DNA of 64,000 nt from Ignavibacteriae bacterium HGW-Ignavibacteriae-1 (GTDB lineage Bacteria; Bacteroidota; Ignavibacteria; Kapaibacteriales; UBA2268), in contig PGYU01000007.1 of assembly GCA_002839825.1 (NCBI GenBank), positions 27,165-91,164 on the forward strand, written 5' to 3'. Under the pieces are notes generated by a model. The model ran no database searches and had not been told where the DNA came from. It saw only the letters and a list, made by a program, of their open reading frames with translations. Numbering within the stretch: the first letter of the stretch is position 1; every line of letters starts with the position of its first letter. This document shows positions 1 through 55,412 of this stretch, piece by piece. A program made the translations under genes and the position numbers.

Positions 1-2328
1 AATGAAATAATTTATCAGTTTCGGTTGATATATTCTGATATTGCGGCAATGATTTGAGATTGAAAAATGCTCCACCGAGAATAGAATATTCAAATTGCTC
101 GGGTTTTCGATTTTGAATTATATAATCACTATATTTAATTGTAATGAATTGTCCTTCGCGACTTCTTTTGGTTGGTCCGAATAAATCATAAAAATCAGTT
201 TTATTATGTGCTACAGTTAATTCCCAGAACCAATAATTTAATTTAAGATATAAATGTAATCTTTCATTTTCGGGAATCAATTGATTATAAGAATATGAAA
301 TATTAAAATCCGTCATGCTTAAAAAAACTTTGTCAATTAACTTAGCCCGAAAACCAAATGAAGGAAAATCTTTGTAGCCTTCAACAATCGGTATTATTGA
401 TGCAAGGCGTTGACTTGTAAATGGTTCGTAAATACTTTCAGTAACGCCGATTGAATCCAAATTTATCTCGGAAATTGATGGTAAATTCCATTGTTTTAAT
501 TGTGGATTATTCTCCAGAACGTCCATACCCAAGAATTTTATCGAGTTTGCATTTGCATTGTAATTTTCTTTCATTATCACAGGGAGCATCCCATTAACTG
601 TATAGCTATACGCAATTATTGAATCGTTGCCGATTGGTAGTGGTCGGAAATATCCGCGTTCGGTATTGCTTATAACTTCAATTTCCTTGCTTTCAACATT
701 TATCTTAAAAATATTTGAAACACCTGTCAAATAGGAAGTGCCATACAAATATTTACCATCTTCGGAAAAAACGAAATTACTACCCGAATTTCCCTCAAAT
801 GCATAAATATCTTCAAAATTATTATTACCTTGAATTATATCTTTCAAAAGAAATAAAACTAATTTCTGAGTGCCGTCAGTTGAGGAATATGTCGCGGATA
901 AATAATTACCGTCCTTTGAAATATCTAGGTCGAATAAATTATTCCCGAATGGTAATGTATAAAATTCTTCTATTTTTTCATAGGGTGGTAAAAGCCGAGA
1001 TAAAATGCTTCTGCCATTATAAACCCTGATTCCCCAAATTGATTTGTCCGCTTTATTAAATGCAAAATCGCCAAATCTTTGAAAATCCAATGTTTTAATA
1101 ATCTTTCCATTATCTCTCGAAATTAGCACTAAATCGCGATAATTATTATTATTTTCGGTCATAAAAATTGTTCGTGAATCTTCGTCGTATGTAATTGCAG
1201 TTACAAAATGCAGTCTTGGAGACATCACCGGTACGATTTTGCGAATATCGCCTGTTCCCAGATTTATTTCTGCCAAATGTGCTAATTCGCCCGGGTAATT
1301 TATTGCTAAAATTATTGAATTAGTATTTTTATCGTAAAATTGCCGAGATGCCGAGCCGAGTGGTATATCAATAATTTCTCGATGTGTAGTTATTTCATTA
1401 TCGCGAACTCGATTTAAATTTTCATTTTGAAAGTTATTTTCAAAATCAATCCAATTTTTCCATTCTGAAATTAAATCATTGCCATAAATCTTTTTGAATT
1501 GTGTTGCAAAAAAACGACTACTCGAATCACTTCGGTTGTAAAAATCGAGTAGTTTATCAACACCATGCCTATTAGCAAGATAGTTGATAAATCGAGCTCC
1601 GTAAAGATAGGCATTCGAACCCACTTTAAAATCTATAGTTGTGCCCTCTGTTTCGAGCCCAACCGGCAAATAAAAATATGCACTATCCAATACCATTGTC
1701 CTGAACACCATCTCGTCATATCCGCTGAGAGCTCTTCCGTATCCACCATTCATGAAGGTTTCAGCAAAAATCGCCATACCTTCCAGATACCATCGTGGGC
1801 TGTACCATCGCGGTGTCGCCAAATAACTGTAAACCATCGAAAGAGGGTTGCTATTGTCATTTATCGGCTTGCCAAAGAAAACACTTCTAAAAAAAGAATC
1901 GCTTTTCCCTGGCTTGTCGCATACAACTATATGATTTAATTCATGCGTTGCGAGCCACTGCATTCGCTCATTTGCGGGCATAATTTCGTAGATATTATCG
2001 AAAGGATTAATACCCAAAGTTACAAAGTTATGAGGGAGCGTTATCGCACCACCGTTACCGTAATCGCTAAAATCGTGCACAAAAAAAAAATTATTTCCTT
2101 AGAATTATAATCAAACAGATTTTTATTCATTTCGTAAGCATTTACGAAAGCTTTGGCTGTATGTGGAATCAAGTATGAATAACCGCGACCGTAATAGATG
2201 AAATCAAAGTTCGCGACTTTAAAGCTATAAATGTCAATATTTTCACTGCCCTTGCAAATAGTTGGTTGCAAAGGAGTTATAATAAAAAAACAAACAATAC
2301 AGTACAAAATCCGGCTACGCTTATTCAT
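1..2328 (-). CDS. Secreted HExxH zinc-metallopeptidase-like protein with a C-terminal PD40/TolB-type beta-propeller. The 3' end runs off the window and the gene is interrupted by a frameshift at an A10 tract.
   Basis: The minus-strand frame is open from the window edge to ~2040 with no stop, which is why it is absent from the ORF track. My translation contains WLATHELNHIVV (HExxH), then EGMAIFAE ~45 aa later, followed by propeller-like repeats. The 95-aa ORF 2041-2328 supplies the signal peptide in another frame. Reading through the homopolymer at 2086-2095 gives ...KEIIFFF/VHDFSDYGNGGAITLPHN..., which is continuous. Confidence 0.5.
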
Positions 2329-2403
2329 TTATCCTTAGATTTAATATTCAATTTATTCTTTATTTTTATTTCGGGACATAATTGCTTGTGTTTTTGGTGG
2401 CGA

Positions 2404-3558
2404 TTAAAAGCTGATTATTCCTTGTGCACTCATATATACGATACCAATTTGAGAAGCATTATATACCCCAATACTAAATTGATTTGCAGCGGCTGTTCCA
2501 ATCCCTTGATTCATAGCGGCTTCCCCAATTAGTTGGTTTGATGCTGCACCTATACCCTGATTGTTGATAGCCATCCCCAAAGTCGTACCGACAGCATTCT
2601 GTTGCGAATTCGCCGCTGATTGGGGTATTCCTATACCAACTACTTCTTGATTGAAAGCCCCACAGAATTCCGAATTAAACGAAAACATGAATGCATAATT
2701 ACCAATATATTGATTGGTAGCGGATTGGGCACTTGATACTGAAAAAGATGATATAATATTATTTATTGCATTTACCGTATTCAAGCTTAGTCCGCTGTTT
2801 GAAATGCTCACAAAAGAAGTATAACCGGTATTTATCGCATTGATGATTTCTTGTGAATTCATGCCTTTGATATAATTAGGGTCATTCAGCACTTGCGATG
2901 CCGAATAGTACATTTTGCTCGAATCACCTGTGCTGACAGCGTAGATGAAATTATCAACTACTATTCTGTCTCGAAGCGCTTTCAGCCCGTCAAGCTCTTT
3001 TTTACGCAAATTATCATTTTGAATAGAATAGTCAATATTTGCAATAGTTGCCTCGAAAATTGAGTCACGAAGAAGGAATTGATTTGCAAAGTTGTAGAAT
3101 TGTTTCAGTTGTGATTCTACGTCTTTGTTCATTTCCTTAGTCTCGCCTGAATAAAATCCTGCTAATGTAACAATTGTGTTTTGGATGGTTGTCGTATTAT
3201 TTGTTATGAAATCTGAATAATCCCGTAATTCCGCAACTGAACTTGAAATTGTAGGTGATTGATTATATGTTTCAAGTACCGGAATCCACCATTCATTTAT
3301 CATCCCTTTCAAATATAAAGCAAAGTCGCCGAATTCTACTAAATCGTAAATTGTTTTCTTCACCATGTTTGTATCGTTCAATAAATCACTTCGTAAGACG
3401 ATGTTCTCGTCGCCAATTGTGCTTTCGCGGTATCTGTCAGCCTTGGTAAATGCTCCTGAAGCATCACTCTCGTCTACGGGGGACCAATATATTGAGAATA
3501 TAAGTATGGTAACAGCTACAAGAACGCCCAAAATAACTAATACGTATTTCTTATTCAT
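2404..3558 (-). CDS. Hypothetical N-terminally membrane-anchored protein with degenerate NQGIG/NQ.IG repeats at the C-terminus.
   Basis: 384-aa ORF with an ATG start. A hydrophobic helix spans residues 5-25. The C-terminal 100 aa are Gly/Asn/Gln-rich degenerate repeats ending in F. Confidence 0.5.
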   Translation of the reverse strand: MNKKYVLVILGVLVAVTILIFSIYWSPVDESDASGAFTKADRYRESTIGDENIVLRSDLLNDTNMVKKTIYDLVEFGDFALYLKGMINEWWIPVLETYNQSPTISSSVAELRDYSDFITNNTTTIQNTIVTLAGFYSGETKEMNKDVESQLKQFYNFANQFLLRDSIFEATIANIDYSIQNDNLRKKELDGLKALRDRIVVDNFIYAVSTGDSSKMYYSASQVLNDPNYIKGMNSQEIINAINTGYTSFVSISNSGLSLNTVNAINNIISSFSVSSAQSATNQYIGNYAFMFSFNSEFCGAFNQEVVGIGIPQSAANSQQNAVGTTLGMAINNQGIGAASNQLIGEAAMNQGIGTAAANQFSIGVYNASQIGIVYMSAQGIISF

Positions 3559-3653
3559 ACTAACGTCCCAAAATATAGTAACAAACTTTTAATTTATATT
3601 TGCAAATATCAACTATGTAAAGTATAACATTTCAATCAAATAAAAAAGTGATT

Positions 3654-29234: not shown

Positions 29235-29332
29235 CTGAGTGAAATCATAAGCCCTTGTAATATACAATGTTACGAGGGCTTGTTTTTTGTTTCCAACATA
29301 TTACCAAAAGAATGCCAAACCGTCATTTTTGT

Positions 29333-29357
29333 CCCGTCAGGTGTTACACCTGACGGG
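29333..29357. repeat. Perfect palindrome CCCGTCAGGTGTTACACCTGACGGG. An identical copy lies at 33397-33421 with a half copy at 33370-33386. Related CCGTCAG hairpins lie at 46946-46969 and 46991-47013, with a degenerate copy at 56797-56816.
   Basis: Read directly from the sequence. All copies lie in 3' intergenic positions. Confidence 0.6.
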
Positions 29358-29568
29358 AGGATACAGTGTTGTTTAAATGAATTAATATTTTTAAATAACT
29401 TAAGTTATGTAAAATAATGAATCTACAAAATCTGATAATTTTATAATTTAATTCAAATTTCTCTTGTTTATATCCAAAAGTTTACTATTTTTAAAACATC
29501 TAATTTATTAATATGTAGACAATTATACGTTCTTTGATTTTAATAAATTTCAAATAGGGAGTCTAAGT

Positions 29569-32650: not shown

Positions 32651-33367
32651 ATGAAAATAATATTTATTGTTTTATTAATGAGCGTAATTAGTTTGCATTC
32701 ACAGACATATAAAATTAAAAATTATGTGATGGGTAGCTCTGCTGCGACTGTTTCCAATGACGATTTTAATTTTAGAAACACATTAGGACAGCCCGCAATT
32801 GGCAAAATCCAGAACGTAGATAATATTATAGGTTCGGGGTTTTGGTACACAATCGGTAAAACGGCTGATGGTATGCATATTATATATTTAAACCTCGGTT
32901 GGAATCTGATTTCCACCTATGTAGAGCCGGAAATAGCTGCACTTGAAAACATTTTTTCCGAAATTGAAGGTAGCACTGTCATCGTGAAGAATAATTCCGG
33001 GCAGATTTACTATCCCGAGTTTGATATCAATGACATTGGGAATTGGGACGTCAAGCAGGCTTATCAAGTCTATATGTCGAAGGCTGAGATGCTCACGATT
33101 CCGGGCGAGAAAGTGGTGCCTGAAACGACCGAAATAACTCTTTCGACGGGTTGGAATATGCTCGCATATCTCCGAGATAATGCATTGGATATTGAGATTG
33201 CACTTGCTTCACTCGTTGCGGATGACAAGCTCGTCATCGCAAAGGACAACATGGGCAACGTCTTCTATCCCGCTTTCGATATCAATATGATTGGCAATAT
33301 GCTCCCCGGGCAGGGCTACCAGATATATCTGATAAGCGGAGCAACGCTGACGTATCCGGAGAATTAG
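32651..33367 (+). CDS. Small secreted partner protein (cassette 2, gene B) with a shared, internally duplicated C-terminal module.
   Basis: Paralogue of 6556-7269. The C-terminal ~155 aa are ~94% identical to the C-terminus of 34761-36545. Confidence 0.6.
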   Translation: MKIIFIVLLMSVISLHSQTYKIKNYVMGSSAATVSNDDFNFRNTLGQPAIGKIQNVDNIIGSGFWYTIGKTADGMHIIYLNLGWNLISTYVEPEIAALENIFSEIEGSTVIVKNNSGQIYYPEFDINDIGNWDVKQAYQVYMSKAEMLTIPGEKVVPETTEITLSTGWNMLAYLRDNALDIEIALASLVADDKLVIAKDNMGNVFYPAFDINMIGNMLPGQGYQIYLISGATLTYPEN

Positions 33368-33698
33368 AACCCGTCAGGTGTGAGACTTAAATCGTCCCGT
33401 CAGGTGTTACACCTGACGGGAGGAATTTTATTACTACCTAATTCATACCCCGAACTCCCAGTCTTCAAGCTCAATCTAATATGCTGCTACAAAATAAAAT
33501 ATTCAGATGATTAGTTATGTATAATATTATTTTAAGTGTTAATGAGAAAATAGATTTGCATTTAATAAAATAATAGTTATATTTGCCTAAGTGTTTTGTT
33601 CATAAGTGTGAAAGTATATGTGAATTATAAATACAAGTCCGCTAAATGATTAATACACAGAGTTTTAATATATTCTTAAAAATATTGGGAGTGCTTTT

Positions 33699-34760: not shown

Positions 34761-36545
34761 ATGAGAAACATTTTACTTTATTCCTTTATTTTTCTTTCCG
34801 TTAATGTTGTTTTTGCAAATAAAATAACAAATTATGAATATTGGATTGATTACGCTTTTGCAAATAGAATTCAAAATGTAATTAACGATGCAGATTCAAA
34901 TCTAAATTTATCAGAAAGTATAGATTTAACATATTTAGTCCAAGGAATTCACACATTCAATATACGTTTTAAGGATAGTTTAAATAAATGGTCTGTTGCT
35001 CAAACAAGTTTTTTCTACAAGCCGGCTAATGATTCACTAATGGATAATTATAATTACCCAAATAATACTCTCACAGCTTATGAATATTGGGTTGATGATG
35101 ATTTTGTAAATAGAAAATATGGGGTGATAAACCCAAATACATCTCTTTTGAATATTGATTCTTTCTTCTTATTTGAGAATATAAATTCAGGAATTCATAA
35201 ATTCGTAATCAGATTCAAAGATAACTATGGAAAGTGGTCTGTTGCGCAAACAAGTTATTTCTACCATAGGGCAAATGATTCATTAATGGATAATTATAAT
35301 TATCCAAATAACACTCTAATCGCTTATGAATATTGGGTTGATGATAATTATATTGATAAAAAATATGAGACGTTAAATCCTAATACATCAATAATGAATC
35401 TTGATTCTAACTTTTTGTTGGAAAATTTAAATTCAGGAATCCACAAATTTGTAATCAGGTTCAAAGATAACTATGGCAAATGGTCTATTTCTCAAACCAG
35501 TTATTTTTATATTCCTGATAATTCTGAATTTACGGATGTCAGTTATACATCGAACAAAATTTACGGATATCGCTATTGGTTTGATAACAAGCCGGAAACA
35601 ATTTTTACATTGATATTAGATAATAAAGAAGAAACATTTTCCGAAATAATTAATTTGCAATGTCCCGAATTGGATACATTGGGATTGCACGTGCTACACA
35701 TGCAATATATGGATTCAGTTGGGAAATGGAGTGTAGCAGTATCGGATACTTTTATTTATGAAGGATTTGAGGTATCAAAACCAATATTAAAATCCCCGAC
35801 AGATAATGCAAATGTAAAAGCTGATACAATTTTAAAATGGAATATTATCCCATATATTAGCAAATATTATATTCAAATCTCAGATACAAATGATTTTTCT
35901 AATATTTTGGTGTATGATTCACTTACAAATGCAACACAATATGAAATAAATTTTATTGATTTAAAAACTTATTATTGGCGAGTTAAAGCAGAATATGAGG
36001 GCATTTATAGTGAATGGTCGGATGTTTGGGCATTTACAACTGTTGATGCTGCGCAAATTATTTCACTCAACCTTGGTTGGAATCTGATTTCCACCTATGT
36101 AGAGCCGGAATTTGCTGCACTCGAAAACATTTTCTCCGAAATTGAAGGAAGCACTGTCATCGTGAAGAATAATTCCGGGCAGATTTATTATCCTGAGTTT
36201 GATATTAATGATATCGGCGATTGGGACGTGAAGCAGGCTTATCAAGTTTATATGTCGAAGGCTGAAATGCTCACGATTCCGGGCGAGATGGTGGTGCCTG
36301 AAACGACCGAAATCACCCTCACAACGGGATGGAATATGCTTGCATATCTCCGCGATAATGCTATGGATATTGAGAATGCTCTTGCCACGCTCGTTGCGGA
36401 CGACAAACTCGTCATCGCAAAGGACAACATGGGCAACGTCTTCTATCCCGCATTTGAAATCAACATGATAGGCGACATGCTACCCGGGCAGGGCTATCAA
36501 ATATATCTGACAAGCGGAGCAACGCTGACCTATCCGGAGAATTAG
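34761..36545 (+). CDS. Multi-repeat secreted protein with four ~81-aa tandem repeats, an FN3-like domain and the shared C-terminal module.
   Basis: Repeats carry YEYWVDD...NSGIHKFVIRFKDNYGKWSVAQTSYFY. The FN3-like stretch reads YYWRVKAEYEGIYSEWSDVWAFTT. The C-terminal 160 aa match 32651-33367. Confidence 0.6.
   Translation: MRNILLYSFIFLSVNVVFANKITNYEYWIDYAFANRIQNVINDADSNLNLSESIDLTYLVQGIHTFNIRFKDSLNKWSVAQTSFFYKPANDSLMDNYNYPNNTLTAYEYWVDDDFVNRKYGVINPNTSLLNIDSFFLFENINSGIHKFVIRFKDNYGKWSVAQTSYFYHRANDSLMDNYNYPNNTLIAYEYWVDDNYIDKKYETLNPNTSIMNLDSNFLLENLNSGIHKFVIRFKDNYGKWSISQTSYFYIPDNSEFTDVSYTSNKIYGYRYWFDNKPETIFTLILDNKEETFSEIINLQCPELDTLGLHVLHMQYMDSVGKWSVAVSDTFIYEGFEVSKPILKSPTDNANVKADTILKWNIIPYISKYYIQISDTNDFSNILVYDSLTNATQYEINFIDLKTYYWRVKAEYEGIYSEWSDVWAFTTVDAAQIISLNLGWNLISTYVEPEFAALENIFSEIEGSTVIVKNNSGQIYYPEFDINDIGDWDVKQAYQVYMSKAEMLTIPGEMVVPETTEITLTTGWNMLAYLRDNAMDIENALATLVADDKLVIAKDNMGNVFYPAFEINMIGDMLPGQGYQIYLTSGATLTYPEN
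34830..35790. repeat. Tandem ~243-bp (81-aa) intragenic repeats, about four units. Units 2 and 3 are near-identical at the DNA level.
   Basis: For example, aatgattcactaatggataattataattacccaaataatactct (35027) against aatgattcattaatggataattataattatccaaataacactct (35270). Confidence 0.6.
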
Positions 36546-36707: not shown

Positions 36708-37751
36708 ATGAAAATTTTGATAGTGGTACTTTTGTTTTTAGGGGCTTTTGATGTGTTCGCACAGAGCAGGGAGGTGAATCAACATCTGCAGATGCTGGCG
36801 AACGGCAAAACTGATGAGGTGAGGTCGGCGATTCCGGAACTTTTGGCTCGCTATCCGAATGACCCGGGCATCATGTTGCTGCATGGTAGTGTGGTCGAGG
36901 ATATGAAGCTGTCGCTGGATATTTATCGGCGTATCGTCACTGATTACGCAGGGAGCGAGTGGGCGGACGATGCTCAATGGCGCATTGTGCAGCATTATGC
37001 TATTTGGGGCGACACGAGCAAGGCTAAGTCCGAGCTCGATATTCTGCGTGCCAAGCATCCCTATTCGACATACTTAACAGTTGCTGCAGATGTAGTCAGG
37101 AGTTCAGTCGCATATGCCAAGAGCAACACGAAAGCTATAGCACGAACCGAAAATCAGCGCCCAATTATTGACGAACCCGCCAAACAAGATTTCAAGCCGC
37201 TTACAAGTGAAGCATCGCCTAACAGATTAGCTGATTCAAAACCCGCTGATAATGTTGCGATTGACAATAAATTGAAAGAAATTTCACCTGACATCAATGC
37301 AGAACCAACTCCAACGAGAACAGAACCCACTCCATCGAGAACGGAAACCGCTCCATCGAGAACGGAAACCGCTCCATCGAGAACTGAAACCACTCCCACA
37401 AGAACTGAACCCACTCAAACCAGAACTGAACCAGTTTCAGCGCAAGAAGTTAAACCGGTCACGCAAATTGACTCGCCTGAAATAAGCGATGTGACGATTG
37501 TGGAAGATGTGCCGAAAGAGATATTTTACGGCTTGCAGGTAGGGATTTATAGCGAGAAAGCTACTGCGGAATCTGAAAAGGAGAAGTTTTTGGCAAAGCG
37601 TATGCGGACAACGGTTGCGGAGAAAAATGTCGCCGGAAGACTGAGATATGCGGTTGTGATTGGGCATTATTCCTCGCTCGAAGCTGCCGAAGCTGCTAAA
37701 ATAATCGTCGGGCAACAGTGCGAATGCGAGCCTTTGATTTACGAAAAATAG
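36708..37751 (+). CDS. SPOR-domain protein with a TPR-like N-terminal region and a low-complexity TPSRTE hexapeptide tandem repeat linker.
   Basis: Signal peptide. The C-terminus FYGLQVGIYSEKATAESEKEKF...YAVVIGHYSSLEAAEAA is SPOR-like. An 18-bp DNA period runs through 37310-37430. Confidence 0.55.
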   Translation: MKILIVVLLFLGAFDVFAQSREVNQHLQMLANGKTDEVRSAIPELLARYPNDPGIMLLHGSVVEDMKLSLDIYRRIVTDYAGSEWADDAQWRIVQHYAIWGDTSKAKSELDILRAKHPYSTYLTVAADVVRSSVAYAKSNTKAIARTENQRPIIDEPAKQDFKPLTSEASPNRLADSKPADNVAIDNKLKEISPDINAEPTPTRTEPTPSRTETAPSRTETAPSRTETTPTRTEPTQTRTEPVSAQEVKPVTQIDSPEISDVTIVEDVPKEIFYGLQVGIYSEKATAESEKEKFLAKRMRTTVAEKNVAGRLRYAVVIGHYSSLEAAEAAKIIVGQQCECEPLIYEK

Positions 37752-43969: not shown

Positions 43970-46801
43970 ATGAACATAATAAGTCATTTTAAAGATAGAG
44001 GAAAAGCAGTCACCATAACTTATAGCTTGGTTTTTGCTTTAATTGCCTACTTAGCATTTACGACACTCAACTCTGCGGTACAAGTAACAATGCCCGAAGA
44101 GAACGACGAATGCATGATGTGCCATGACGACAAAGATTTGAAAGGTACGCGCAAAGGCAAGAATATTTCGATGTATGTCAATCCCAATCACGTTTTGGGT
44201 TCAGTTCACGCTGAAGTAAAATGCGTTGATTGCCATACAGATTTAGCAGGAGTGGAATTGCCTCACGAGGACGATTTGAAGCCCGCAACTTGTGGTAAAT
44301 GCCACACTAAGCAGCAAAAGGATTTCGACATGAGCTTTCATGGTGTAGCACTCAAAAAAGGCGACCCTTTGGCGCCTAATTGTCAGTACTGCCACGGTAG
44401 CCACCAAATTGTTGATGCAAAGCACGAAAAATCGCCCGTGCAACCCCTCAAAATACCATTCATGTGTGGGAAATGCCACCAAGAAGGTGCACCCGTACAA
44501 ATGTCTAGGAATATTCCCCAATCGCATATCTTGGAAAATTATTCTGAGAGTATTCATGGTGAAGGTCTTTTCAAGCGCGGTTTAGTTGTGACTGCTACTT
44601 GCGTTTCGTGTCATACTGCACATGCGATTTTGCCACATACTGATAAGAGGTCTTCGATTGCACGTAATAATATTGCCGCAACGTGCTCTCAATGTCATGC
44701 GAGAATTGAAGATGTGCACAAAAAAATCATTGATGGCGAATTATGGGAGAAAGAAGCTCATACGCTGCCTGCTTGTGTTGATTGCCACCAACCTCATAAA
44801 GTTCGGAAATCGTTTTATGATGTAGGTTTAGCAAAAGCCGAGTGTTTGAATTGTCACCAAGATAAAAATATTAAAGCAAGCAAAGGCGGTCGCTCTCTGC
44901 ATGTTGATATAAGCAAATTAGACCATTCGGTACATTCAGACCTTGCTTGCAGTAAATGCCATATTGAGGTTCGCCCATCTAAAATTCGCTCTTGCGAAAC
45001 AATTACAACAAAAGTTAATTGTGGAAGTTGCCATGACAAAGTAAACGATAATTATATGCAAAGCAGCCATGGGAAGCTATTCTTAAGTGGTGAAAGTGAT
45101 GCTCCAACTTGTGTAACATGCCACAATGACCACGAAGTGCTCCCGAAGATTAATCCAATGTCTAAAACTTTTGCTATAAATATTCCTAACCTATGCTCAG
45201 AGTGTCACCAAGACGGACATCAAGCAGCGGTCAGGATGGAAGACAAGGTACAACATCTTACAGAAACTTATTCGGAGAGTATTCACGGGCAGGGCTTGAA
45301 ATCCGGCAGACTCAAAGTAACGGCGAATTGTTCGGATTGTCACTCTGCGCATATGGAAGCAAATCATGAAAATCCCGTATCCTCGACTCATAAGGACAAT
45401 ATTAGCACCACTTGTGGCAAGTGCCATTGGGGAATTCAGACTCAATTCGATAAAAGTATCCACTCGCCAATGGTATCAAAATCGGAAGATGACTTGCCAA
45501 ATTGTAACACATGCCATGTGGCTCACTCAGTAGTTGACCCATCAAAAGATGAGTTCAGATTGTCCATGTTGAATACCTGCGGCAAATGCCATGAAAAAAT
45601 TACTCACTTATATTTCGATACATATCACGGGAAGGCGTCACTTCTTGGTTCGGGCAAAGCTGCTAAATGCCAAGATTGCCATAGCGCCCATATGATATTA
45701 CCAACATCACACGCAAATTCGACACTTTCACGAGACAACATTGTCGAAACATGTGCAAAATGCCATCCCGCAGCTAATAAAGGCTTTACAAGGTATTTAA
45801 CTCATGCAACTCATCACGACCCGGAAAAATACCCACTGCTTTTCATCACATTTTGGGGTATGACAATACTTCTTCTCGGCACATTTCTGGTTTCATGGTT
45901 GCACACATTATTGTGGTTGCCAAAGTCATTAAAGATGCGAAAAGAGATGATGGTACTCAAAGCCGCTGGGCATTCTGGCAAACGCGTTAGGAGATTTACA
46001 CCATTGAACCGAATTTTGCACGTCACAATGATATTATGCTTCCTGACTCTTGCCGCCACAGGGATGATGCTCAAATTCTCATATGCTTGGTGGGCACAAT
46101 TCAGCGTTAAGTTGATTGGCGGAGTGGAAGTTACAGGCTTCTTCCATCGCTTTGCTGCAATAGTATTGTTCGGTGTATTCTTTACTCATATTTTCGATTT
46201 AATATTCAACAAACGTAAAGAATTTAGTTCATGGAAAGAAATGCTTTTGGGTTCGGATTCTCTTTTGCCAAATAAAAAAGATTGGGAAGATTTTATCGGC
46301 TCAATGAAATGGTTCTTCAACAAAGGACCGCGCCCGCAATACGGAAGATGGACTTATTGGGAAAAATTCGACTATTTTGCAGTATTTTGGGGGATTTTCG
46401 TAATTGGCTCAACCGGGCTTATGCTCTGGATACCCGAGTTTTTCACCAAATTTATGTCCGGACAATTCATTAACGTTGCTACTATTATTCATAGTGACGA
46501 GGCATTGCTTGCAGCAGGATTCATTTTCACCATACATTTCTTCAATACGCACTTCCGTCCGGAAAAATTCCCTATGGATACCGTAATTTTCTCAGGAAGT
46601 TATGATGTAGAAGAATTCAAATTCGACAGACCCGCCGAATATGAAAAATTGGTCGAAGAAGGGAAATTGGAAGAACTTTACGTTGACGCACCGACTCCGA
46701 CACAAAAGAAAGTTCATTCAATCTTTGGATGGGCAGCTTTATTAACCGGATTATTAATAGTCTTTTTAATAATTTATTCGATTATTAGCATTAACTTTTA
46801 A
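43970..46801 (+). CDS. Membrane-anchored 19-heme c-type cytochrome fused to a C-terminal FdnI/HydC-like diheme cytochrome b domain (CbcL-like).
   Basis: I count 19 CxxCH motifs between residues 48 and 600. The C-terminal 330 aa hold 4-5 TM helices with [25 protein letters not shown] and [18 protein letters not shown], matching the Ni/Fe-hydrogenase/formate-dehydrogenase b-type cytochrome family. Confidence 0.8.
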
Positions 46802-46812
46802 ATGTAAGTATA

Positions 46813-46945
46813 TCAATTCATCCGATGACTCCAAGTCATCGGATGAATATTGTAGATTAAAATATTGTAGGGACAGCAACAGCGTTCTGTCCAAAATATC
46901 GTCATACTTAGCTGCATGCGAAGAATCAAGTTTTCAAAAAAACAT
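46813..46945. repeat. ~130-bp intergenic repeat element, copy A (copy B at 55284-55412). It opens with a 14-bp-stem hairpin.
   Basis: Copy A reads caATTCATCCGATGACTccaAGTCATCGGATGAATAt...GGACAGCAACAGCGTTCTGTCC...GAAGAATCAAGTTTTCA, and copy B is nearly identical. Confidence 0.65.
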
Positions 46946-47378
46946 TCCGTCAGGTCTACAACTGACGGACTGAAATGAAGAACATGTTTACCGTCAGTTA
47001 TAACAACTGACGGGACAATAAAACGAATGATATTGTATAAATTGTTGCAGTGAATAAGGTAGGTGACGTTTGGGTGATAAAACTTGGAGAGACTTCTGTT
47101 TTGCAGTTCTCAAATGTTCATCATATAGTGTTTTCCATATCTCAAGCACTTTTTAACTAATTTTAAGGACGTTATTAGTATTTACCCATAAATCAGAAAA
47201 TAGTATCAAAGAAATTATTAATTTTTAGAAATATAGTACAAACTAAAAATAAATGTTGAAATTTAATTCAATTTGTTTATCTTTGTTTGTTGACTTTTTG
47301 GATGTTTATATATAGTTATATATATATGTTGTTTTTTAGATATAAATAATCTTACAATAATATTCTGATAAGGTAAAT

Positions 47379-48545
47379 ATGAAAGACAAGAAGCATATAG
47401 TAATAGTATTCTCAATAGTTTTTGGGAGTATAATTATAGCGTTGATTGCTGACAGATTATTGCAACCTACAAGTTTCGGCAAATACGGACATTACCGTTG
47501 GGATGCCGTTAATGAGCTTCAGACTCAGAAAATCATAAATCAAAATACTAATACATGTAGTGAATGTCATAATGATATATATCAGTTGCATCAGAAGGAC
47601 GCTCATTTTAGTGTGCCTTGTGTTGACTGCCACGGTGCGGGAGATTTGCACGTTTCATTCTATAGAAAAGATGAAAACTCGAAGAATATCACCAAATTAC
47701 AAGCTGTACTGAAAAAAGAATTTGATTTCGAAGGTTGTCTTTATTGCCACCGGAAATTAAATGCTCGACCTTCTGACTTCCCTCAGATAAATCAGGAAGA
47801 GCATTACAAATTTATGCACGTAATTGATTCAACTACAAAATGTATTGCCTGCCATGATCCTCACGAGCCTATATTTCTATTGACTGAATCAAGACAGGCT
47901 CGTCTGCATCCAATAGTTTACAAATGTACTGATTGCCACAGTAAAAGACCCGAAAAGAATTATTATGATGTTGCCGACCATCCTAAGATATTCGAATGTA
48001 AAGATTGTCATTCCGAAATTGTCAAGGATTTCAACACTAAATCTCACAGTAACGCAGTTGAATGTCGAACATGCCATTTATTTCATAAAGAAGATGAGAC
48101 AATTGGACGAATGTATAAAAACGGAAACATGGAATTCTGTTTGCTTTGTCATGAAAAGAAACCCTTCAAAGATGCAGACTTTCCTCCTAAAGTTGAGTGG
48201 CCTTCCCACATTGGCAGTCTAAAACATATAGAAAAGACAGATACGAAATTATGTCTTGACTGTCACGCAAAGGATATTCATAAAATGGATTTAAGATTGA
48301 GGGGGAATCCGCATCCCGGAAATTGGAAAGCCGAACATAAGAAATATGCAAAGAGAACTTTTGCTTCTAATGACAAATCTGATTGTAAAAATTGTCATAC
48401 AAAGGATTATTGTATGTCCTGTCATTTGACAGAAATGCCACACCCGGTTGATTTTATGGATAATCACAAATTCACTGTTGAGAAAAAAGGGAAAAAAATG
48501 TGTGCAAACTGCCATAATACTGATTTCTGCGGTCAATGTCATTAA
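47379..48545 (+). CDS. Membrane-anchored 13-heme c-type cytochrome.
   Basis: An N-terminal TM helix precedes 13 CxxCH motifs, the last being CGQCH at the C-terminus. Confidence 0.8.
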   Translation: MKDKKHIVIVFSIVFGSIIIALIADRLLQPTSFGKYGHYRWDAVNELQTQKIINQNTNTCSECHNDIYQLHQKDAHFSVPCVDCHGAGDLHVSFYRKDENSKNITKLQAVLKKEFDFEGCLYCHRKLNARPSDFPQINQEEHYKFMHVIDSTTKCIACHDPHEPIFLLTESRQARLHPIVYKCTDCHSKRPEKNYYDVADHPKIFECKDCHSEIVKDFNTKSHSNAVECRTCHLFHKEDETIGRMYKNGNMEFCLLCHEKKPFKDADFPPKVEWPSHIGSLKHIEKTDTKLCLDCHAKDIHKMDLRLRGNPHPGNWKAEHKKYAKRTFASNDKSDCKNCHTKDYCMSCHLTEMPHPVDFMDNHKFTVEKKGKKMCANCHNTDFCGQCH

Positions 48546-51680: not shown

Positions 51681-53111
51681 ATGAAAATACTATACTTTGT
51701 TGTTACATTTATGTTGATAATCGCCAATTATGGGACTTTAAGTTCGATAGAAAACGATGATTGCATGATGTGTCATTCTGATCCCGATATGTATATGGAA
51801 AAGGGGCGTTCAAAAATTTCTCTATGGGTGGATAATTCAAAGTTTATGTTTTCTGCCCATAAAAATGTGAAATGTATAGACTGCCACAAGGGATTCGACC
51901 CCGATGATATCCCGCATAAAGAAAATATTGGGAAAATTGATTGCAACTCATGTCATCAAGGAGTCGAAAAAAAGCATACCTTCCACCCATGGATGGCAGA
52001 TGCTCCTTTGCAAAACGATTGCAAAAAATGTCATGGCTATCATTATGCAACTCCGGCTAAGGGCAAAGGCAGCAAGGTCTCCGGCATTCATTCTCTTCAA
52101 CAATGCGGCACTTGCCATCAAGATGTGGTTGACGAATATATGAAATCGGAGCATTACAAAGCATTATTGAGCATCTCGGACGAAAATGCCCCCGATTGCA
52201 ATTATTGCCATAGTAAACCCATCACTAAGGGCTGGATTGGAAATTATATTGAGCGAAAAGCAAACCAAAACCAAGTTTGTACAGATTGCCATAGTCACGA
52301 CACCAAAAATCCCTCGGTCATCAAAACGATAACAAATTCTAATTCGAGGCATTTCCAACTGAAAGCTGAAGGTAAAGAGCACGCTGCAGTATGTACGGAT
52401 TGCCACGGATTTCATAATATTAAGAAAAATGAGGATTTTGAAGCTCGTCTCAGTGTCAAAAATTCATTCTCTGCGTGTGGCAAATGCCACGTTCATATCG
52501 CCCAAGAATATCAAAACAGTATCCACGGGTTGGCTCAAATCAAAGGCAATATGGATGCTGCATCGTGCGTCAGTTGCCATTTCGAACATGATTTGAAAAA
52601 GGTTCCACACGTAGATGAAGCCATTTTCAAAAGTAATAAATTAAACAAACAATTTGCCATAGACAGCAAAATGATTTATTGCGTTTCTTGCCATGGCGAT
52701 TCGGAATTAATGGGCAAAAGCAATATCAAATCATTGTTGGAATCACATTCGTGGTTGCCGGAACTCGAAAGCCATTTTTCCGCAGTATCTTGTTTCGATT
52801 GTCATTCGAGTTATACGGTACCGTATTTATCGCATAATATATTACCTTTGGAAAAAAGTGTCAAAACTTGCAATCCATGCCACGAGCAGGACATGAATTT
52901 GAAATCTAAATTGGCAAATTATTACAAGACACGAAAAACCGGAGAATCCGGAATAATTGACGGCACAATAGGCGGTGGCAGTTACGTTGGCTTGTCTCGG
53001 AGTGTAATTCTTGATAATCTAAGTTTTATACTTCTGGGAGGCGTATTTATTGGTTTACTCGCTCATGGTTATATTAGATGGTACTTCAGAAGCAAAAAGG
53101 AATCAAAATGA
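51681..53111 (+). CDS. 13-heme c-type cytochrome with N- and C-terminal membrane anchors.
   Basis: I count 13 CxxCH motifs. The N-terminus CMMCHSD resembles the 43970 protein's CMMCHDD. A C-terminal hydrophobic helix is present. Confidence 0.8.
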   Translation: MKILYFVVTFMLIIANYGTLSSIENDDCMMCHSDPDMYMEKGRSKISLWVDNSKFMFSAHKNVKCIDCHKGFDPDDIPHKENIGKIDCNSCHQGVEKKHTFHPWMADAPLQNDCKKCHGYHYATPAKGKGSKVSGIHSLQQCGTCHQDVVDEYMKSEHYKALLSISDENAPDCNYCHSKPITKGWIGNYIERKANQNQVCTDCHSHDTKNPSVIKTITNSNSRHFQLKAEGKEHAAVCTDCHGFHNIKKNEDFEARLSVKNSFSACGKCHVHIAQEYQNSIHGLAQIKGNMDAASCVSCHFEHDLKKVPHVDEAIFKSNKLNKQFAIDSKMIYCVSCHGDSELMGKSNIKSLLESHSWLPELESHFSAVSCFDCHSSYTVPYLSHNILPLEKSVKTCNPCHEQDMNLKSKLANYYKTRKTGESGIIDGTIGGGSYVGLSRSVILDNLSFILLGGVFIGLLAHGYIRWYFRSKKESK

Positions 53112-55270
53112 AAAAGTTAGAACTATACCCGATTTGGATTAGAATTTGGCATATTTTGCAAGGTATTTTATTTCTTCTTCTTTTGATTTCCGGTGTTGGT
53201 ATGCATTTTGGGATTGTACCGATTGGCTTTTCATTGCCAATCCATATTTATTCCGGTATCACGATGTCGGTACTATATATACTATTTTTCGTAATGAATT
53301 TCGCAACCGGGAATGCAAAACATTATTTCAAAATTCAAAAAGGGACAGTAAAGAAATTTTTTGTAGAATTAAAATATTATTTTTGGGATATATTTATTCA
53401 GCAAGAATTGGCATACGACCCGGAAATCATTAAATTCGGTGTTTTCAAGCAATTATTATATTTGAAAATAATGTATATAGTTATTCCATGTATTATTATT
53501 ACAGGATTAATTATTTTGATACCAAATCTGATGCCTGAAACGATTTTTGGTAGCTCAGGTGTTTGGGTTATTACGCTGATTCACACGATAATGGGATTCT
53601 TCCTGACTGCGTTTTTCCTTTTGCACTTATATTTGGGTACAACAGGCAAGACAGTTGGTCAATTATATAAAGCAATTGCAAGCGGTAGTCTGGAATACGA
53701 AGAAAAAATACCGGAACAAGAATTACCATCGGATTTAGTAAAGAAAAAGAAATTCTTCCCGACATCATTTTATAATCCGCTTACAATGCTCGGCTCATTA
53801 TTAGCATTAATGGCATTTGTAGTGATTATCGGACTATTATTTGTTGACATAATTGCAGGATTTGACAATCCCTATATCGGCATTGTTACATTCATTTTCT
53901 TACCTATAATTCTTGGTCTCGGTATAGTATTGATATTTCTCGGGGCTTTATGGGAAAGCAAAAAACGTTTTCTTGCCCAAAAGAAAGATAAACCATTGCC
54001 AATAATAGATTTAAATAGTCCCAAAACCCAAAGAATAATAGCATTTATGTCAATTATTGGTGTGATTTTGTTATTATTCACAGTATTCGGCTCGTTTAAA
54101 GCTTACGAATATACGGAATCTGATGAGTTTTGCGGCGAGGCATGTCATCAGGTTATGCACCCTGAATATTTGGCATATCAAGATTCTCCGCATTCAAATG
54201 TGGGATGCGTCAAATGCCACATCGGTTCAGGTGCAGATTGGTTTGTCAAAGCCAAGTTGTCCGGTAGTTGGCAGCTGATTTCGGTTATGTTTGATTTGTA
54301 TTCAAAACCGATTCAAGTGCCTGTTGCTCATCTACGTCCTGCCCAAGAGACTTGTGAGCAGTGCCATTGGCCCGCTAATTTCAATAGCGAAAAGAAAATA
54401 GTCTATGATTTTTTCCAATCGGACGAAGTCAATTCCGAAACGATGTTGACAATGTTACTCAAAACCGGTGGTGGTACACCTGAAAGCGGTAGGCAATCCG
54501 GGATTCATTGGCATATGAATCTCGCTAATGAGATTCATTATATTGCAAATGATTACGAGCGCCAAGATATTCCTTGGGTGAGAGTGGTTTCAAAATTGAC
54601 CGGCGATACGACTATTTATATCAGAGAAGACGACGAAATAACACCGGATATGCTCGAGCCCGAAAAATTACGGAAAATGGATTGTATTGATTGCCACAAC
54701 AGACCATCGCACATTTACAAGATTCCTTACAAGGAAGTAAATACATATATGTCGAATCGCAAAATTGACAATTCACTGCCATTTATCAAAAATCTCGCCG
54801 TCCAAATACTCGAATCATATTCGATTAATCGCGAAAATTCATTGGCGGAAATTAGTAATTATATAAATAATTTTTATAATAAATATTACCCTGAAACAGC
54901 GAAGGGGAAAAAGCATCAGATTCAGCAATCAATCCACCACATTAACACAATTTATTTGCGAAATTATTTCCCGGAAATGCATACAAATTGGAAACGATTC
55001 CCGAATAATTTGGGGCATATGTATTCCGATGGGTGCTTCAGATGCCACGACGGTAAACACAAATCAGCTGACGGGAAAGTGGTGAGCCACGATTGCAATG
55101 TTTGTCATACAATTATTTCACAAAAAACGCCCGGTCAAATTGAAGAAACACGCGGTTTAGACTTGGAATTCAAGCATCCCGGTGGCGAAAATCTCAACAT
55201 CGAAAACAGACTTTGTTCCGACTGTCATGGCATTAAACAAGTGAAAAACATACAGGCATTCAAAAAATAA
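53108..55270 (+). CDS. Fusion of an FdnI/HydC-like cytochrome b (N-terminal) with a periplasmic 7-heme NapC/NirT/ImcH-like c-type cytochrome (C-terminal).
   Basis: The ATG at 53108 follows AAGGAA and overlaps the upstream stop by 4 nt. N-terminal motifs: IWIRIWHILQGILFLLLLISGVGMH and ITLIHTIMGFFLTAFFLLHLYLG. Seven CxxCH motifs follow, including CVKCHIGSGADWFVKAK, which is NapC/NrfH-like. Confidence 0.75.
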   Translation: MKKLELYPIWIRIWHILQGILFLLLLISGVGMHFGIVPIGFSLPIHIYSGITMSVLYILFFVMNFATGNAKHYFKIQKGTVKKFFVELKYYFWDIFIQQELAYDPEIIKFGVFKQLLYLKIMYIVIPCIIITGLIILIPNLMPETIFGSSGVWVITLIHTIMGFFLTAFFLLHLYLGTTGKTVGQLYKAIASGSLEYEEKIPEQELPSDLVKKKKFFPTSFYNPLTMLGSLLALMAFVVIIGLLFVDIIAGFDNPYIGIVTFIFLPIILGLGIVLIFLGALWESKKRFLAQKKDKPLPIIDLNSPKTQRIIAFMSIIGVILLLFTVFGSFKAYEYTESDEFCGEACHQVMHPEYLAYQDSPHSNVGCVKCHIGSGADWFVKAKLSGSWQLISVMFDLYSKPIQVPVAHLRPAQETCEQCHWPANFNSEKKIVYDFFQSDEVNSETMLTMLLKTGGGTPESGRQSGIHWHMNLANEIHYIANDYERQDIPWVRVVSKLTGDTTIYIREDDEITPDMLEPEKLRKMDCIDCHNRPSHIYKIPYKEVNTYMSNRKIDNSLPFIKNLAVQILESYSINRENSLAEISNYINNFYNKYYPETAKGKKHQIQQSIHHINTIYLRNYFPEMHTNWKRFPNNLGHMYSDGCFRCHDGKHKSADGKVVSHDCNVCHTIISQKTPGQIEETRGLDLEFKHPGGENLNIENRLCSDCHGIKQVKNIQAFKK

Positions 55271-55283
55271 ATTCATAATTAAA

Positions 55284-55412
55284 CAATTCATCCGATGACT
55301 TTCGAGTCATCGGATGAATATAGAATGGATATTTCTTATGGACATCAACAGCGTTCTATCCAAATTTCCGTCATTTTTAGCCACCGACGAAGAATCAAGT
55401 TTTCATAAAAAT
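55284..55412. repeat. ~130-bp intergenic repeat element, copy B.
   Basis: caATTCATCCGATGACTttcgAGTCATCGGATGAATAt...GGACATCAACAGCGTTCTATCC...GAAGAATCAAGTTTTCA. Confidence 0.65.

What the first reader, a model, noticed from the sequence alone, without database searches (positions are those of the whole stretch)
46813..46945. Same ~130-bp structured element immediately 3' of both cytochrome-b fusion genes
Copy A (46813-46945) and copy B (55284-55412) start 12-14 nt after the stop codons of the two genes that carry FdnI-like domains. Both open with a 14-bp perfect-stem hairpin (TTCATCCGATGACT / AGTCATCGGATGAA) whose loops differ (ccaa against ttcg), a compensatory-type difference that argues for conservation at the RNA-structure level. 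Both continue with GGACAGCAACAGCGTTCTGTCC and GAAGAATCAAGTTTTCA. The genes themselves are not homologous at their 3' ends, so this is not a by-product of gene duplication. It could be a shared terminator with an sRNA or stability element that co-regulates the cytochrome modules, or a small mobile repeat.
Basis: seen in the sequence. Interest (0 to 1): 0.55.

Follow-up and report, generated by a model that had tools for sequence, protein, structure and literature searches.

The report
Generic intergenic hairpin repeats, not cytochrome-specific
The two look-alike 130-base stretches after the cytochrome genes are real. They are patchworks of short palindromic repeats that sit after all kinds of genes in many related bacteria, so they are not a dedicated cytochrome regulator.

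Summary
Copy A (46813-46945) and copy B (55284-55412) align at about 81% identity, and both begin 14-15 nt after the stop codons of two unrelated cytochrome-b/multihaem fusion genes.

The "element" is a mosaic of three independent modules.
1. hp1 is a 33-nt perfect hairpin (ANT-CATCCGATGAC-T nnn A-GTCATCGGATG-AN'T). Its exact core occurs in at least 119 stretches from about 59 species genomes of Bacteroidota, Ignavibacteria, Kapabacteria, Chlorobiota and a few others. It usually starts 2-15 nt after the stop codon of an unrelated gene, and never after a multihaem cytochrome gene.
2. The "mid" module is a small 31-nt repeat.
3. The third module is a degenerate copy of the widespread GTCATTCTGAGCGAAGCGAAGAATC palindrome, which fits the TGTC/CGTC-tagged REP type.

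Orthologues of both cytochrome genes at 94-96% identity lack hp1. More distant orthologues carry other hairpins. No Rfam family matches.

Best reading: this is a BIME-like cluster of REP-like repeats. hp1 probably acts as a generic 3'-end hairpin (a termination or mRNA-stability barrier), and how it spreads is unknown. Co-regulation of the cytochromes is not supported.

Side findings: hp1 shows real base-pair covariation. It is enriched after type IX secretion cargo genes. In three genomes it lies in frame inside the secretion-signal domain.

The parts
43970..46801 (+). Upstream gene 1 (context). A 943-aa multihaem cytochrome c fused to a cytochrome b561-type domain.
   Evidence: ORF. Pfam PF14522, PF14537, PF09699, PF01292 and others.
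46816..46848 (.). hp1 copy A. A 33-nt perfect hairpin: stem ATTCATCCGATGACT, loop CCA, stem AGTCATCGGATGAAT. It starts 14 nt after the stop codon.
   Evidence: The covariance model R1 scores it 60.8 bits on either strand. It belongs to the family found in at least 119 genomic stretches.
46849..46867 (+). Linker between hp1 and the mid module. It is poorly conserved between A and B.
   Evidence: ATTGTAGATTAAAATATTG in A against ATAGAATGGATATTTCT in B.
46868..46898 (+). Mid module copy A (TAGGGACAGCAACAGCGTTCTGTCCAAAATA). It contains a 6-bp stem, GGACAG/CTGTCC.
   Evidence: The same module occurs elsewhere without hp1, in L122 and L123.
46899..46942 (+). Degenerate REP module copy A. Layout: CGTC tag (46900-46903), 9-position stem ATACTTAGC / GCGAAGAAT with 2 mismatches, 5-nt loop TGCAT, tail CAA, then GTTTTCAAAAAAA.
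   Evidence: The 96% orthologue has an intact GGTCATTCTGAGCCGAAGGCGAAGAATCAA at this position. The canonical 25-mer is widespread.
46946..46969 (.). First CCGTCAG-type hairpin (TCCGTCAG gtctacaa CTGACGGA) directly after copy A.
   Evidence: (family D7), and (called terminator-like on the minus strand).
46991..47013 (.). Second CCGTCAG-type hairpin (CCGTCAGTT ataac AACTGACGG).
   Evidence: (family D7; other members at 29331-29361 and 33394-33424).
53078..55270 (+). Upstream gene 2 (context). A 730-aa protein with an N-terminal cytochrome b561-type domain fused to NapC/NirT-type and c7-type multihaem domains.
   Evidence: Not similar to gene 1.
55286..55319 (.). hp1 copy B. The same 15-bp stem with loop TTCG. 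It starts 15 nt after the stop codon.
   Evidence: R1 scores it 58.8 bits.
55337..55367 (+). Mid module copy B (TATGGACATCAACAGCGTTCTATCCAAATTT). Its small stem is broken by two non-compensatory changes.
55368..55411 (+). Degenerate REP module copy B. Layout: CGTC tag at 55369-55372, then ATTTTTAGC CACCG ACGAAGAAT CAA, then GTTTTCATAAAAA.

Best explanation
Copies A and B are two instances of a BIME-like mosaic of short, generic, REP-like intergenic palindromic repeats. They are not an element dedicated to the cytochrome genes.

Each copy is made of three modules.
1. hp1 is a 33-nt perfect hairpin from a family spread across Bacteroidota, Ignavibacteria, Kapabacteria and Chlorobiota genomes.
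2. A 31-nt 'mid' module.
3. A decayed copy of the TGTC/CGTC-tagged REP GTCATTCTGAGCGAAGCGAAGAATC.
Copy A is followed by two further hairpins of a fourth family (CCGTCAG...CTGACGG).

Shown:
- The modules occur independently of each other, and of cytochrome genes, in many genomes.
- hp1 sits almost always just downstream of stop codons, in tandem or convergent gene pairs.
- Its 15-bp stem is maintained by compensatory changes.
- It is present or absent among close relatives at the two cytochrome loci.

Inferred:
- When transcribed as the 3' end of the upstream mRNA, hp1 folds into a very stable hairpin. That hairpin would act as a generic 3'-end element: a barrier to 3'-to-5' exonucleases and/or a termination signal without a U-tract. 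Because it is a perfect palindrome, it would work on both strands.
- At 14-15 nt from the stop codon it might also hinder terminating ribosomes. This has been described for E. coli REPs (Liang, Rudd and Deutscher 2015, cited from memory).
- The modules spread at the DNA level by an unidentified mechanism. Candidates are a transposase acting in trans, recombination, or gene conversion.
- That both copies in this window follow cytochrome-b fusion genes is best explained by local copying or by chance placement, not by function.
For: - One is an isolate, Alkaliflexus imshenetskii DSM 15055.
- hp1 is intergenic in about 114 of 130 cases. Gene arrangements are mostly tandem or convergent (33 '+-', 28 '++', 19 '--', only 8 divergent).
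- The stem starts 2-15 nt after a stop codon in about 45 of 61 oriented cases. In several convergent pairs hp1 fills the whole spacer (L016, L036, L075, L095, L105).
- Covariation lies outside the searched pattern. Pair 2 of the stem is UA 49, CG 33, GC 22, AU 4 and unpaired 9, out of 121.
- Divergent family members found with model R1 are mostly perfectly compensated, for example CATCAGGTGAC/GTCACCTGATG and CACCCCGTGAC/GTCACGGGGTG.
- The central C:G pair is flipped to G:C in L002, L104 and L086.
- None of the 55 adjacent genes is a multihaem cytochrome.
- Orthologues: L120 (96% identity) has the REP module directly after the stop codon and no hp1 or mid. L124 (94%) has an unrelated G-rich palindrome and different downstream genes. 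L121 and L009 have other hairpins.
- The 3' part of A and B has no match next to other hp1 copies.
- The mid module occurs without hp1 in L122 and L123.
- The REP 25-mer is common, often as inverted doublets, and is usually preceded by T, giving a TGTC tag. This matches the description of CGTC/TGTC-tagged REPs, which are located mainly downstream of coding regions between unidirectional and convergent ORFs (PMC3733652).
- No Rfam family matches.
Against: - No U-tract follows hp1: only 9 of 60 copies have a T4 run within 10 nt. The consensus terminator scan does not call it on the gene strand. A role as a classical intrinsic terminator is therefore unproven.
- There are no expression data.
- The copy number in the source genome is unknown. 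The only two copies in 64 kb both follow cytochrome-b fusion genes, which is unlikely under random placement among some 50 gene ends.
- hp1 lacks the unpaired GTAG or CGTC tag that defines the described REP super-families.
- No transposase was found near any copy, so mobility is inferred only from patchy distribution and presence/absence.
- The exact conservation of 26-30 nt across phyla is not explained by a purely structural role.
Confidence: 0.65

Rival explanations
1. hp1, and the composite, is primarily a selfish DNA element or a DNA-level protein-binding or recombination site. It would be recognised as a hairpin or palindrome by a trans-acting enzyme such as a RAYT-like HUH/Y1 transposase or a tyrosine recombinase. 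Any effect on the upstream mRNA would be incidental.
For: - The sequence, not only the pairing, is conserved across at least 3 phyla, including synonymous sites where hp1 lies inside coding sequence.
- G-U pairs are rare (4 of 121 at the covarying pair). This fits a palindrome that must hold on both DNA strands.
- hp1 is present or absent between 94-96% relatives.
- Clusters and tandem copies occur (L005, L010, L020, L066).
- One MAG carries 70-100-bp perfect palindromes with unique arms centred on hp1, which suggests DNA-level processes.
- Each arm, TCATC-C-GATGA, is itself palindromic.
Against: - No transposase or recombinase family recurs among 148 ORFs within 1.5 kb of copies, nor in the neighbour clustering.
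- No isolated single arms were found.
- No target-site duplication was seen.
- hp1 is absent from 2.9 million viral contigs.
- The tight placement just after stop codons, and as the sole spacer between convergent genes, suggests the host uses it.
Confidence: 0.2
2. A cytochrome-specific 3'UTR element (terminator plus sRNA or stability element) that co-regulates the two cytochrome-b fusion genes.
For: - Both copies in the 64-kb window follow the two genes with PF01292 plus multihaem domains, at the same distance from the stop codon.
- The two genes lie in one respiratory gene cluster.
Against: - Not conserved at the orthologous positions, even at 94-96% protein identity, nor at 75% and roughly 67%.
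- Every module occurs elsewhere next to unrelated genes.
- The second hairpin is broken in B, and the linker is not conserved.
- No Rfam family matches.
Confidence: 0.05
3. A by-product of duplication: the 130 nt were copied together with a gene end, or by local gene conversion between the two loci 8.5 kb apart. The similarity would then carry no functional meaning beyond shared ancestry.
For: - The order hp1 - mid - REP - AAGTTTTCA is the same in A and B.
- The mid-to-REP junction is also kept in L122, so at least mid plus REP travels as a unit.
- The two copies are close together.
Against: - The upstream proteins are unrelated, and similarity starts only about 5 nt before hp1. Gene duplication is therefore excluded.
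- The linker between hp1 and mid is not conserved, while the modules are. This fits modular assembly better than a recent block copy.
- The REP module of A is no closer to B (7 differences) than to the orthologous L120 copy (5 differences).
Confidence: 0.1

Closest known systems
REP elements and BIMEs of Enterobacteria and Pseudomonas (repetitive extragenic palindromes; bacterial interspersed mosaic elements)
   Same: - Short palindromic units of 20-40 nt in transcribed extragenic DNA, mostly downstream of genes in tandem or convergent pairs.
- They occur singly, as inverted doublets, and as mosaics of different modules.
- Proposed roles are mRNA 3'-end stabilisation and termination (PMC3733652).
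- From memory: REPs within 15 nt of a stop codon impede translation termination in E. coli.
   Different: - hp1 is a perfect 15-bp stem with no unpaired GTAG or CGTC tag.
- Its sequence is shared across phyla rather than being specific to a species.
- Copy numbers seen here are modest (at least 9-14 per genome in a truncated scan).
- No RAYT gene was found nearby.
CGTC/TGTC-tagged REP super-family (Di Nocera, De Gregorio and Rocco 2013, PMC3733652)
   Same: The third module (GTCATTCTGAGCGAAGCGAAGAATC and its degenerate copies in A and B) has these features:
- an NGTC tag: TGTC in 62 of 69 copies, CGTC in A and B;
- a 9-position stem that begins with A-T and T-A;
- a short loop and a 3-nt tail.
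The paper reports such repeats in Bacteroidetes and Chlorobi, and reports no dedicated transposase.
   Different: - I could not see the paper's consensus figures, so assignment to one of its four families is untested.
- The canonical copies have a GAA loop closed by tandem G.A pairs.
- Tails are mostly CTC rather than CCA.
- The A and B copies are decayed (2-3 stem mismatches).
Rickettsia palindromic elements (RPEs)
   Same: Palindromic repeats that are also found in frame inside protein-coding genes. hp1 reads I-HPMT-x-SHRM-N and lies inside the type IX secretion C-terminal domain of long ORFs in L111, L049 and L119.
   Different: - RPEs are 100-150 bp insertions that lengthen the protein.
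- hp1 is 33 nt and is length-neutral in the domain alignment.
- Most hp1 copies are extragenic.
Paired DNA uptake sequences acting as terminators (Neisseria DUS, Haemophilus USS)
   Same: A conserved sequence appears as an inverted pair downstream of genes and forms terminator-like hairpins.
   Different: Uptake sequences also occur abundantly as single copies inside genes. hp1 arms essentially never occur singly.

Membership tests
REP / BIME-type extragenic palindromic repeats (general kind) | A short (20-40 nt) palindromic unit repeated at many extragenic sites of a genome. | tested here: met
   hp1 is 33 nt. It was found in at least 119 stretches, with several genomes carrying at least 9-14 loci each (JAKQJD, CAZCLJ, JAERMQ) in a truncated scan. 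About 114 of 130 copies are intergenic. Copy number in the source genome itself was not measurable.
REP / BIME-type extragenic palindromic repeats (general kind) | Preferential location downstream of coding regions, between unidirectional and convergent ORFs. | tested here: met
   33 convergent, 47 tandem and 8 divergent contexts. The modal distance from the stop codon is 8-15 nt.
REP / BIME-type extragenic palindromic repeats (general kind) | Mosaic clusters that combine different repeat modules. | tested here: met
   Window 46816-47013 holds hp1, mid, REP and two CCGTCAG hairpins. L114 1-310 has REP, hp1, REP, REP. L122 has mid plus a REP doublet.
GTAG- or CGTC-tagged REP super-families (PMC3733652): applied to hp1 | An unpaired GTAG or CGTC (TGTC/CCTC) tetranucleotide at one end of the palindrome. 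| tested here: not met
   hp1 ends are A-N-T / A-N'-T and are paired. The flanks show no conserved tag.
GTAG- or CGTC-tagged REP super-families (PMC3733652): applied to the third module | A CGTC/TGTC tag, an 8-9 bp stem that starts with complementary A-T residues, a 4-5 nt loop and a short tail. | tested here: met
   - Tag: TGTC in 62 of 69 canonical copies, CGTC in A (46900-46903) and B (55369-55372).
- Stem: ATTCTGAGC / GCGAAGAAT, 9 positions including two G.A pairs.
- Loop: 3-5 nt.
- Tail: CTC, CCA or CAA.
Assignment to a specific family (CGTC-1 to CGTC-4) was not tested, because the figure is not held.
REPIN / RAYT system | A RAYT (IS200/IS605-like Y1 transposase) gene flanked by the repeats in the same genome. 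| tested here: inconclusive
   No transposase family appears among 148 ORFs within 1.5 kb of hp1 copies or in the neighbour clustering. Whole genomes could not be searched, so a single distant RAYT copy is not excluded.
Intrinsic (Rho-independent) terminator | A G+C-rich hairpin immediately followed by a U-tract. | tested here: not met
   The stem is strong, but only 9 of 60 oriented copies have TTTT within 10 nt. The scan does not call A or B on the gene strand. This lowers the claim 'is a canonical terminator', not the claim 'acts at mRNA 3' ends'.
Intrinsic (Rho-independent) terminator | Transcripts end at the element in vivo. | not testable with these tools
   No RNA-seq or Term-seq data are available here.
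Described structured RNA family (Rfam 15) | A match to a curated covariance model. | tested here: not met
   Only two tRNAs reach gathering score in the window. At E up to 10 on 46750-47400, only chance-level hits appear (MicF at 27 bits against a gathering score of 79, and similar).
3'UTR-derived sRNA specific to the cytochrome cluster | Conservation at the orthologous 3' ends in relatives. | tested here: not met
   Absent in L120 (96%), L124 (94%), L121 (75%) and L009 (about 67% nt).

The most novel reading that the evidence does not exclude
hp1 is an undescribed palindromic element conserved across phyla in the Bacteroidota-Ignavibacteria-Chlorobiota group. A dedicated, conserved trans-acting factor reads its exact sequence, and it is functionally tied to type IX secretion cargo genes. 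It is 4.6-fold enriched at their 3' ends. In three species it is embedded in frame, and without changing length, in the secretion-signal domain, with synonymous sites frozen. It could be an RNA signal that couples mRNA fate to secretion. It could also be a recombination site that lets C-terminal secretion signals and 3' ends be exchanged between genes.
Probability: 0.1. Interest if true: 0.7.

Novelty: new member of a known kind. Interest (0 to 1): 0.3.

Why it matters
For the finding as submitted, the result is deflationary. There is no hidden cytochrome regulator. The two copies are ordinary repeat clutter at gene ends, and similar pairs elsewhere in such genomes should not be read as co-regulation.

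The by-product has some value.
- hp1 is an easily recognised hairpin shared across phyla. It marks gene 3' ends in a bacterial group where terminators are poorly defined, so it could help annotate transcript ends and operon boundaries.
- It offers a clean test of whether hairpins without a U-tract terminate or stabilise transcripts in these bacteria.
- It is a candidate for a new REP-like family with an unknown mobilising or binding factor.
- Its link to type IX secretion cargo genes is statistically suggestive, but unexplained.

Tried and rejected
1. **Rfam.** Searched at gathering threshold over the whole window, and at E up to 10 on 46750-47400. There was no family match.
2. **Literature by exact sequence or peptide.** Terms were CATCCGATGAC, GTCATCGGATG, the REP 19-mer, VILSEAKNL and others. 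Only unrelated primers or nothing came back. Searches for Ignavibacteria palindromic repeats and for REP plus stop codon plus trans-translation gave nothing usable.
3. **Gene paralogy.** The idea was that the 3' regions were duplicated together with the genes. The proteins are unrelated, so it was rejected.
4. **Decayed secretion-domain fragments.** The sequence after hp1 in A and B might have been a decayed tail of a type IX secretion C-terminal domain, as suggested by L114 and L119. Local alignment against five such tails is no better than shuffles (z = 0.6 and 0.1). Rejected. That stretch is instead the independent mid module.
5. **DNA-uptake-sequence model.** Single arms outside hairpins are essentially absent. 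Rejected.
6. **Phage origin of hp1.** There were 0 hits in viral contigs.
7. **Nearby transposase or RAYT.** None was found.
8. **Canonical intrinsic terminator.** There is no U-tract.
9. **Assembly or adapter artefact.** Rejected. Loops and flanks vary, the palindromes stop inside long contigs, and an isolate genome carries hp1.
10. **A fuzzy-regex scan** timed out and was replaced by BLAST.

Full report
**1. Observation**

The two stretches exist as described. Copy A (46813-46945) and copy B (55284-55412) align at about 81% identity over roughly 130 nt.
- The shared 22-mer (up to 3 mismatches) is expected 0.00 times in shuffles. The shared 18-mer is expected 0.19 times.
- BLAST, repeat finding, and a covariance-model search with filters off all find exactly two copies in the 64-kb window.
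- The upstream genes are 43970-46801 (943 aa) and 53078-55270 (730 aa). The first has multihaem c domains followed by a PF01292 cytochrome b domain. The second has PF01292 at the N-terminus followed by NapC/NirT and c7 domains.
- The two proteins are not similar to each other. The similarity is therefore not a remnant of gene duplication.

Three details need correction.
- The stem is 15 bp and the loops are CCA and TTCG.
- A loop difference is not a compensatory change.
- The second small hairpin (GGACAG/CTGTCC) is intact in A but broken in B by two non-compensatory substitutions.

**2. The hairpin is a widespread, generic module**

I scanned one genome per species for CATCCGATGAC-N(2-8)-GTCATCGGATG.
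They come from about 59 assemblies labelled Bacteroidota, Ignavibacteria, Kapabacteria and Chlorobiota, plus a few labelled Chloroflexota or otherwise.
- One of them is the isolate Alkaliflexus imshenetskii DSM 15055.
- Several MAGs carry many copies.

The unit is ANT-CATCCGATGAC-T nnn A-GTCATCGGATG-AN'T.
- The parts outside my search pattern still pair. Pair 1 is A-U in 112 of 121 copies.
- Pair 2 covaries freely (UA 49, CG 33, GC 22, AU 4, GU/UG 4, unpaired 9).
- Pair 3 is U-A in 116 of 121. The loop-closing pair is U-A in 110 of 121.

A covariance model (R1) finds about 20 further, divergent members in the held loci.
- Their cores differ, but most are perfectly compensated. Examples are CATCAGGTGAC/GTCACCTGATG, CACCCCGTGAC/GTCACGGGGTG and GATACGATGAC/GTCATCGTATC.
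- In three copies the central C:G pair is flipped to G:C.

So hp1 is a genuine structured family, but it is not a cytochrome element.
- About 114 of 130 copies are intergenic. Most lie in tandem or convergent gene contexts, and only 8 are in divergent contexts.
- The stem begins 2-15 nt after a stop codon in about 45 of 61 oriented cases.
- In several convergent pairs hp1 is essentially the whole spacer.
- None of the 55 genes that end within 40 nt upstream of a copy is a multihaem cytochrome.
- No U-tract follows hp1: 9 of 60 copies have one (scans).

**3. The rest of the "element" is also modular**

- The 3' two-thirds of A and B have no counterpart next to other hp1 copies.
- In the contig carrying the 96%-identical orthologue of gene 1 (L120), the stop codon is followed directly by AAACGATCG-GTCATTCTGAGCCGAAGGCGAAGAATCAA. 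Neither hp1 nor the middle piece is present.
- This shows what the A and B segments CGTCATACTTAGCTGCATGCGAAGAATCAAG and CGTCATTTTTAGCCACCGACGAAGAATCAAG are. They are decayed copies of the motif GTCATTCTGAGCGAAGCGAAGAATC.
- That motif is present in exact form, often as inverted doublets, in many of the same loci. It is also present in 35 viral-contig stretches.
- It has an NGTC tag (TGTC in 62 of 69 copies; CGTC in A and B). It has a 9-position stem that starts A-T, T-A, then a short loop and a 3-nt tail.
- These are the features given for CGTC/TGTC-tagged REPs, which that paper reports in Bacteroidetes and Chlorobi with no dedicated transposase (PMC3733652).
- The middle piece (GGACA.CAACAGCGTTCT.TCC) was found twice in the metagenome collection. 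In L122 it sits directly before an intact REP doublet, without hp1. In L123 it sits after a hairpin of another type, without a REP.
- Copy A is followed by two hairpins of a fourth family (CCGTCAG...CTGACGG). That family also occurs at 29331 and 33394.
- The linker between hp1 and the mid module is not conserved between A and B, although the modules are.

The picture is a BIME-like mosaic of repeat modules.

**4. No conservation at the cytochrome loci**

- The 94% orthologue of gene 2 (L124) has an unrelated G-rich palindrome after the stop codon and different downstream genes.
- The 75% orthologue of gene 1 (L121) has a different 12-bp hairpin.
- The roughly 67% orthologue (L009) has other small hairpins, and its hp1 copy lies about 2.9 kb away.
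- A hairpin after these genes is therefore common, but hp1 specifically is not kept.

**5. Mechanism**

Shown: position, structure, covariation, modularity, and presence/absence among relatives.

Inferred: hp1 is transcribed at the end of the upstream mRNA. It then acts as a generic 3'-end hairpin, meaning a barrier to exonucleases and/or a termination signal without a U-tract. Because it is a perfect palindrome, it would work on either strand. At 14-15 nt from the stop codon it might also interfere with terminating ribosomes, as reported for E. coli REPs (from memory; I could not retrieve the paper).

How it spreads is unknown.
- No transposase recurs nearby.
- hp1 is absent from viral contigs.
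- The exact sequence conservation across phyla and the scarcity of G-U pairs point to a sequence-reading factor, or to DNA-level maintenance. That is the main rival reading.

Both copies in this window follow cytochrome-b fusion genes. This remains a coincidence that I can only attribute to local copying or chance. The source genome was not available for a full census.

**6. Side findings**

- hp1 reads I-HPMT-x-SHRM-N in one frame on either strand. In three long ORFs from three species (L111, L049, L119) it lies in frame inside the type IX secretion C-terminal domain. The Pfam domain hit spans it, at 44-52 bits against a cut-off of 27.
- It replaces ordinary residues there without lengthening the domain.
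- The flanking codons have diverged, while the hairpin nucleotides are identical.
- Truncated versions of the same arrangement occur in L114 and L041.
- Genes that end at or contain hp1 carry this secretion domain in 14 of 61 cases, against 31 of 509 other genes in the same loci. The odds ratio is 4.6 and p = 7e-5. The profile was crude and some paralogues are included.
- In one MAG (JAKQJD), hp1 sits at the centre of 70-100-bp perfect palindromes whose arms are unique.

**7. Verdict**

The cytochrome co-regulation idea is not supported. The fallback reading of a generic small repeat is supported. hp1 appears to be an undescribed member of the REP-like kind. It is of modest interest, with a small chance of something more specific linked to type IX secretion cargo genes.

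Noticed in passing
L111:3659-3685, L119:5560-5586, L049 (minus strand; ORF 2141-3631). Truncated versions at L114:133-159 and L041:413-439.: hp1 lies in frame (I-HPMT-x-SHRM-N), and without changing length, inside the type IX secretion C-terminal sorting domain of long ORFs from three species. The flanking codons have diverged, but the hairpin nucleotides are identical.
   Followed up: partly
119 hp1 loci (L001-L119): Genes that end within 40 nt upstream of hp1, or contain it near their 3' end, carry a type IX secretion C-terminal domain in 14 of 61 cases. Among other genes of the same loci the figure is 31 of 509 (odds ratio 4.6, Fisher p = 7e-5). The HMM was crude and some paralogues are included.
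   Followed up: partly
L002:7534-7632, L003:3236-3328, L017:4365-4453, L027:2357-2449, L115:2679-2773, L117:1178-1262 (all from MAG JAKQJD, Bacteroidota USDV_maxbin.037): These are 70-100-bp perfect palindromes whose outer arms (21-36 bp) are unique sequences, with hp1 at the centre. They lie inside larger contigs with non-complementary flanks. They suggest palindrome extension by template switching, or insertion of hp1 into the loops of long hairpins.
   Followed up: no
window 29331-29361, 33394-33424, 46946-46969, 46991-47013: A fourth hairpin repeat family (CCGTCAG ... CTGACGG). Two copies are identical (GTCCCGTCAGGTGTTACACCTGACGGGAGGA). Related copies occur in L123 and L124.
   Followed up: partly
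L125-L159 (viral contigs); L005, L009, L064, L066, L083, L113, L114, L119, L122: The exact 25-mer GTCATTCTGAGCGAAGCGAAGAATC occurs in 35 viral-contig stretches and in many bacterial loci. It usually has a TGTC tag and often forms inverted doublets 19-31 nt apart (REPIN-like). In L119 and L114 it is read in frame as VILSEAKN inside a secretion-domain region.
   Followed up: partly
L124:1-150, L111 and L049 (about 60 nt upstream of hp1), L059, L011:3115-3339: The same secretion-domain subfamily carries other in-frame palindromes at two fixed slots. Examples are AGATGTCCAACATCT tgg AGATGTTGGACATCT in L124, and ACTTCGGAAGTTT/AAACTTCCGAAGT giving peptides such as PSEGFEPSEG. This domain's coding region seems to tolerate or attract hairpins.
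   Followed up: no
L124:4198-4310: Downstream of the 94% orthologue of gene 2 lies a G-rich imperfect palindrome with telomere-like GGGTTAGGG repeats (ggggttaggggatagggtttgggggttagag ... ccccaagccccaaagccctaccc). Synteny with the window breaks right after the stop codon.
   Followed up: no
window 32857-33156 / 36035-36334; 34818-35434; 37281-37448: Other repeats in the window:
- a 300-nt pair at 88% identity, 3.2 kb apart;
- three tandem 246-nt units;
- seven tandem 21-nt units (GAACCNACTCCNNCGAGAACN, probably a Pro/Thr/Glu-rich coding repeat).
   Followed up: no
L024, L035, L042, L046, L052, L064, L078, L079, L083, L092, L103, L108, L114 and others: Several MAGs labelled 'uncultured Hyphomicrobiales' or 'Gammaproteobacteria' carry hp1, the REP module and type IX secretion domains. 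L114 shares about 71% nucleotide identity with the window. Their taxonomic labels are probably wrong, and Ignavibacteria-like organisms are more likely.
   Followed up: no
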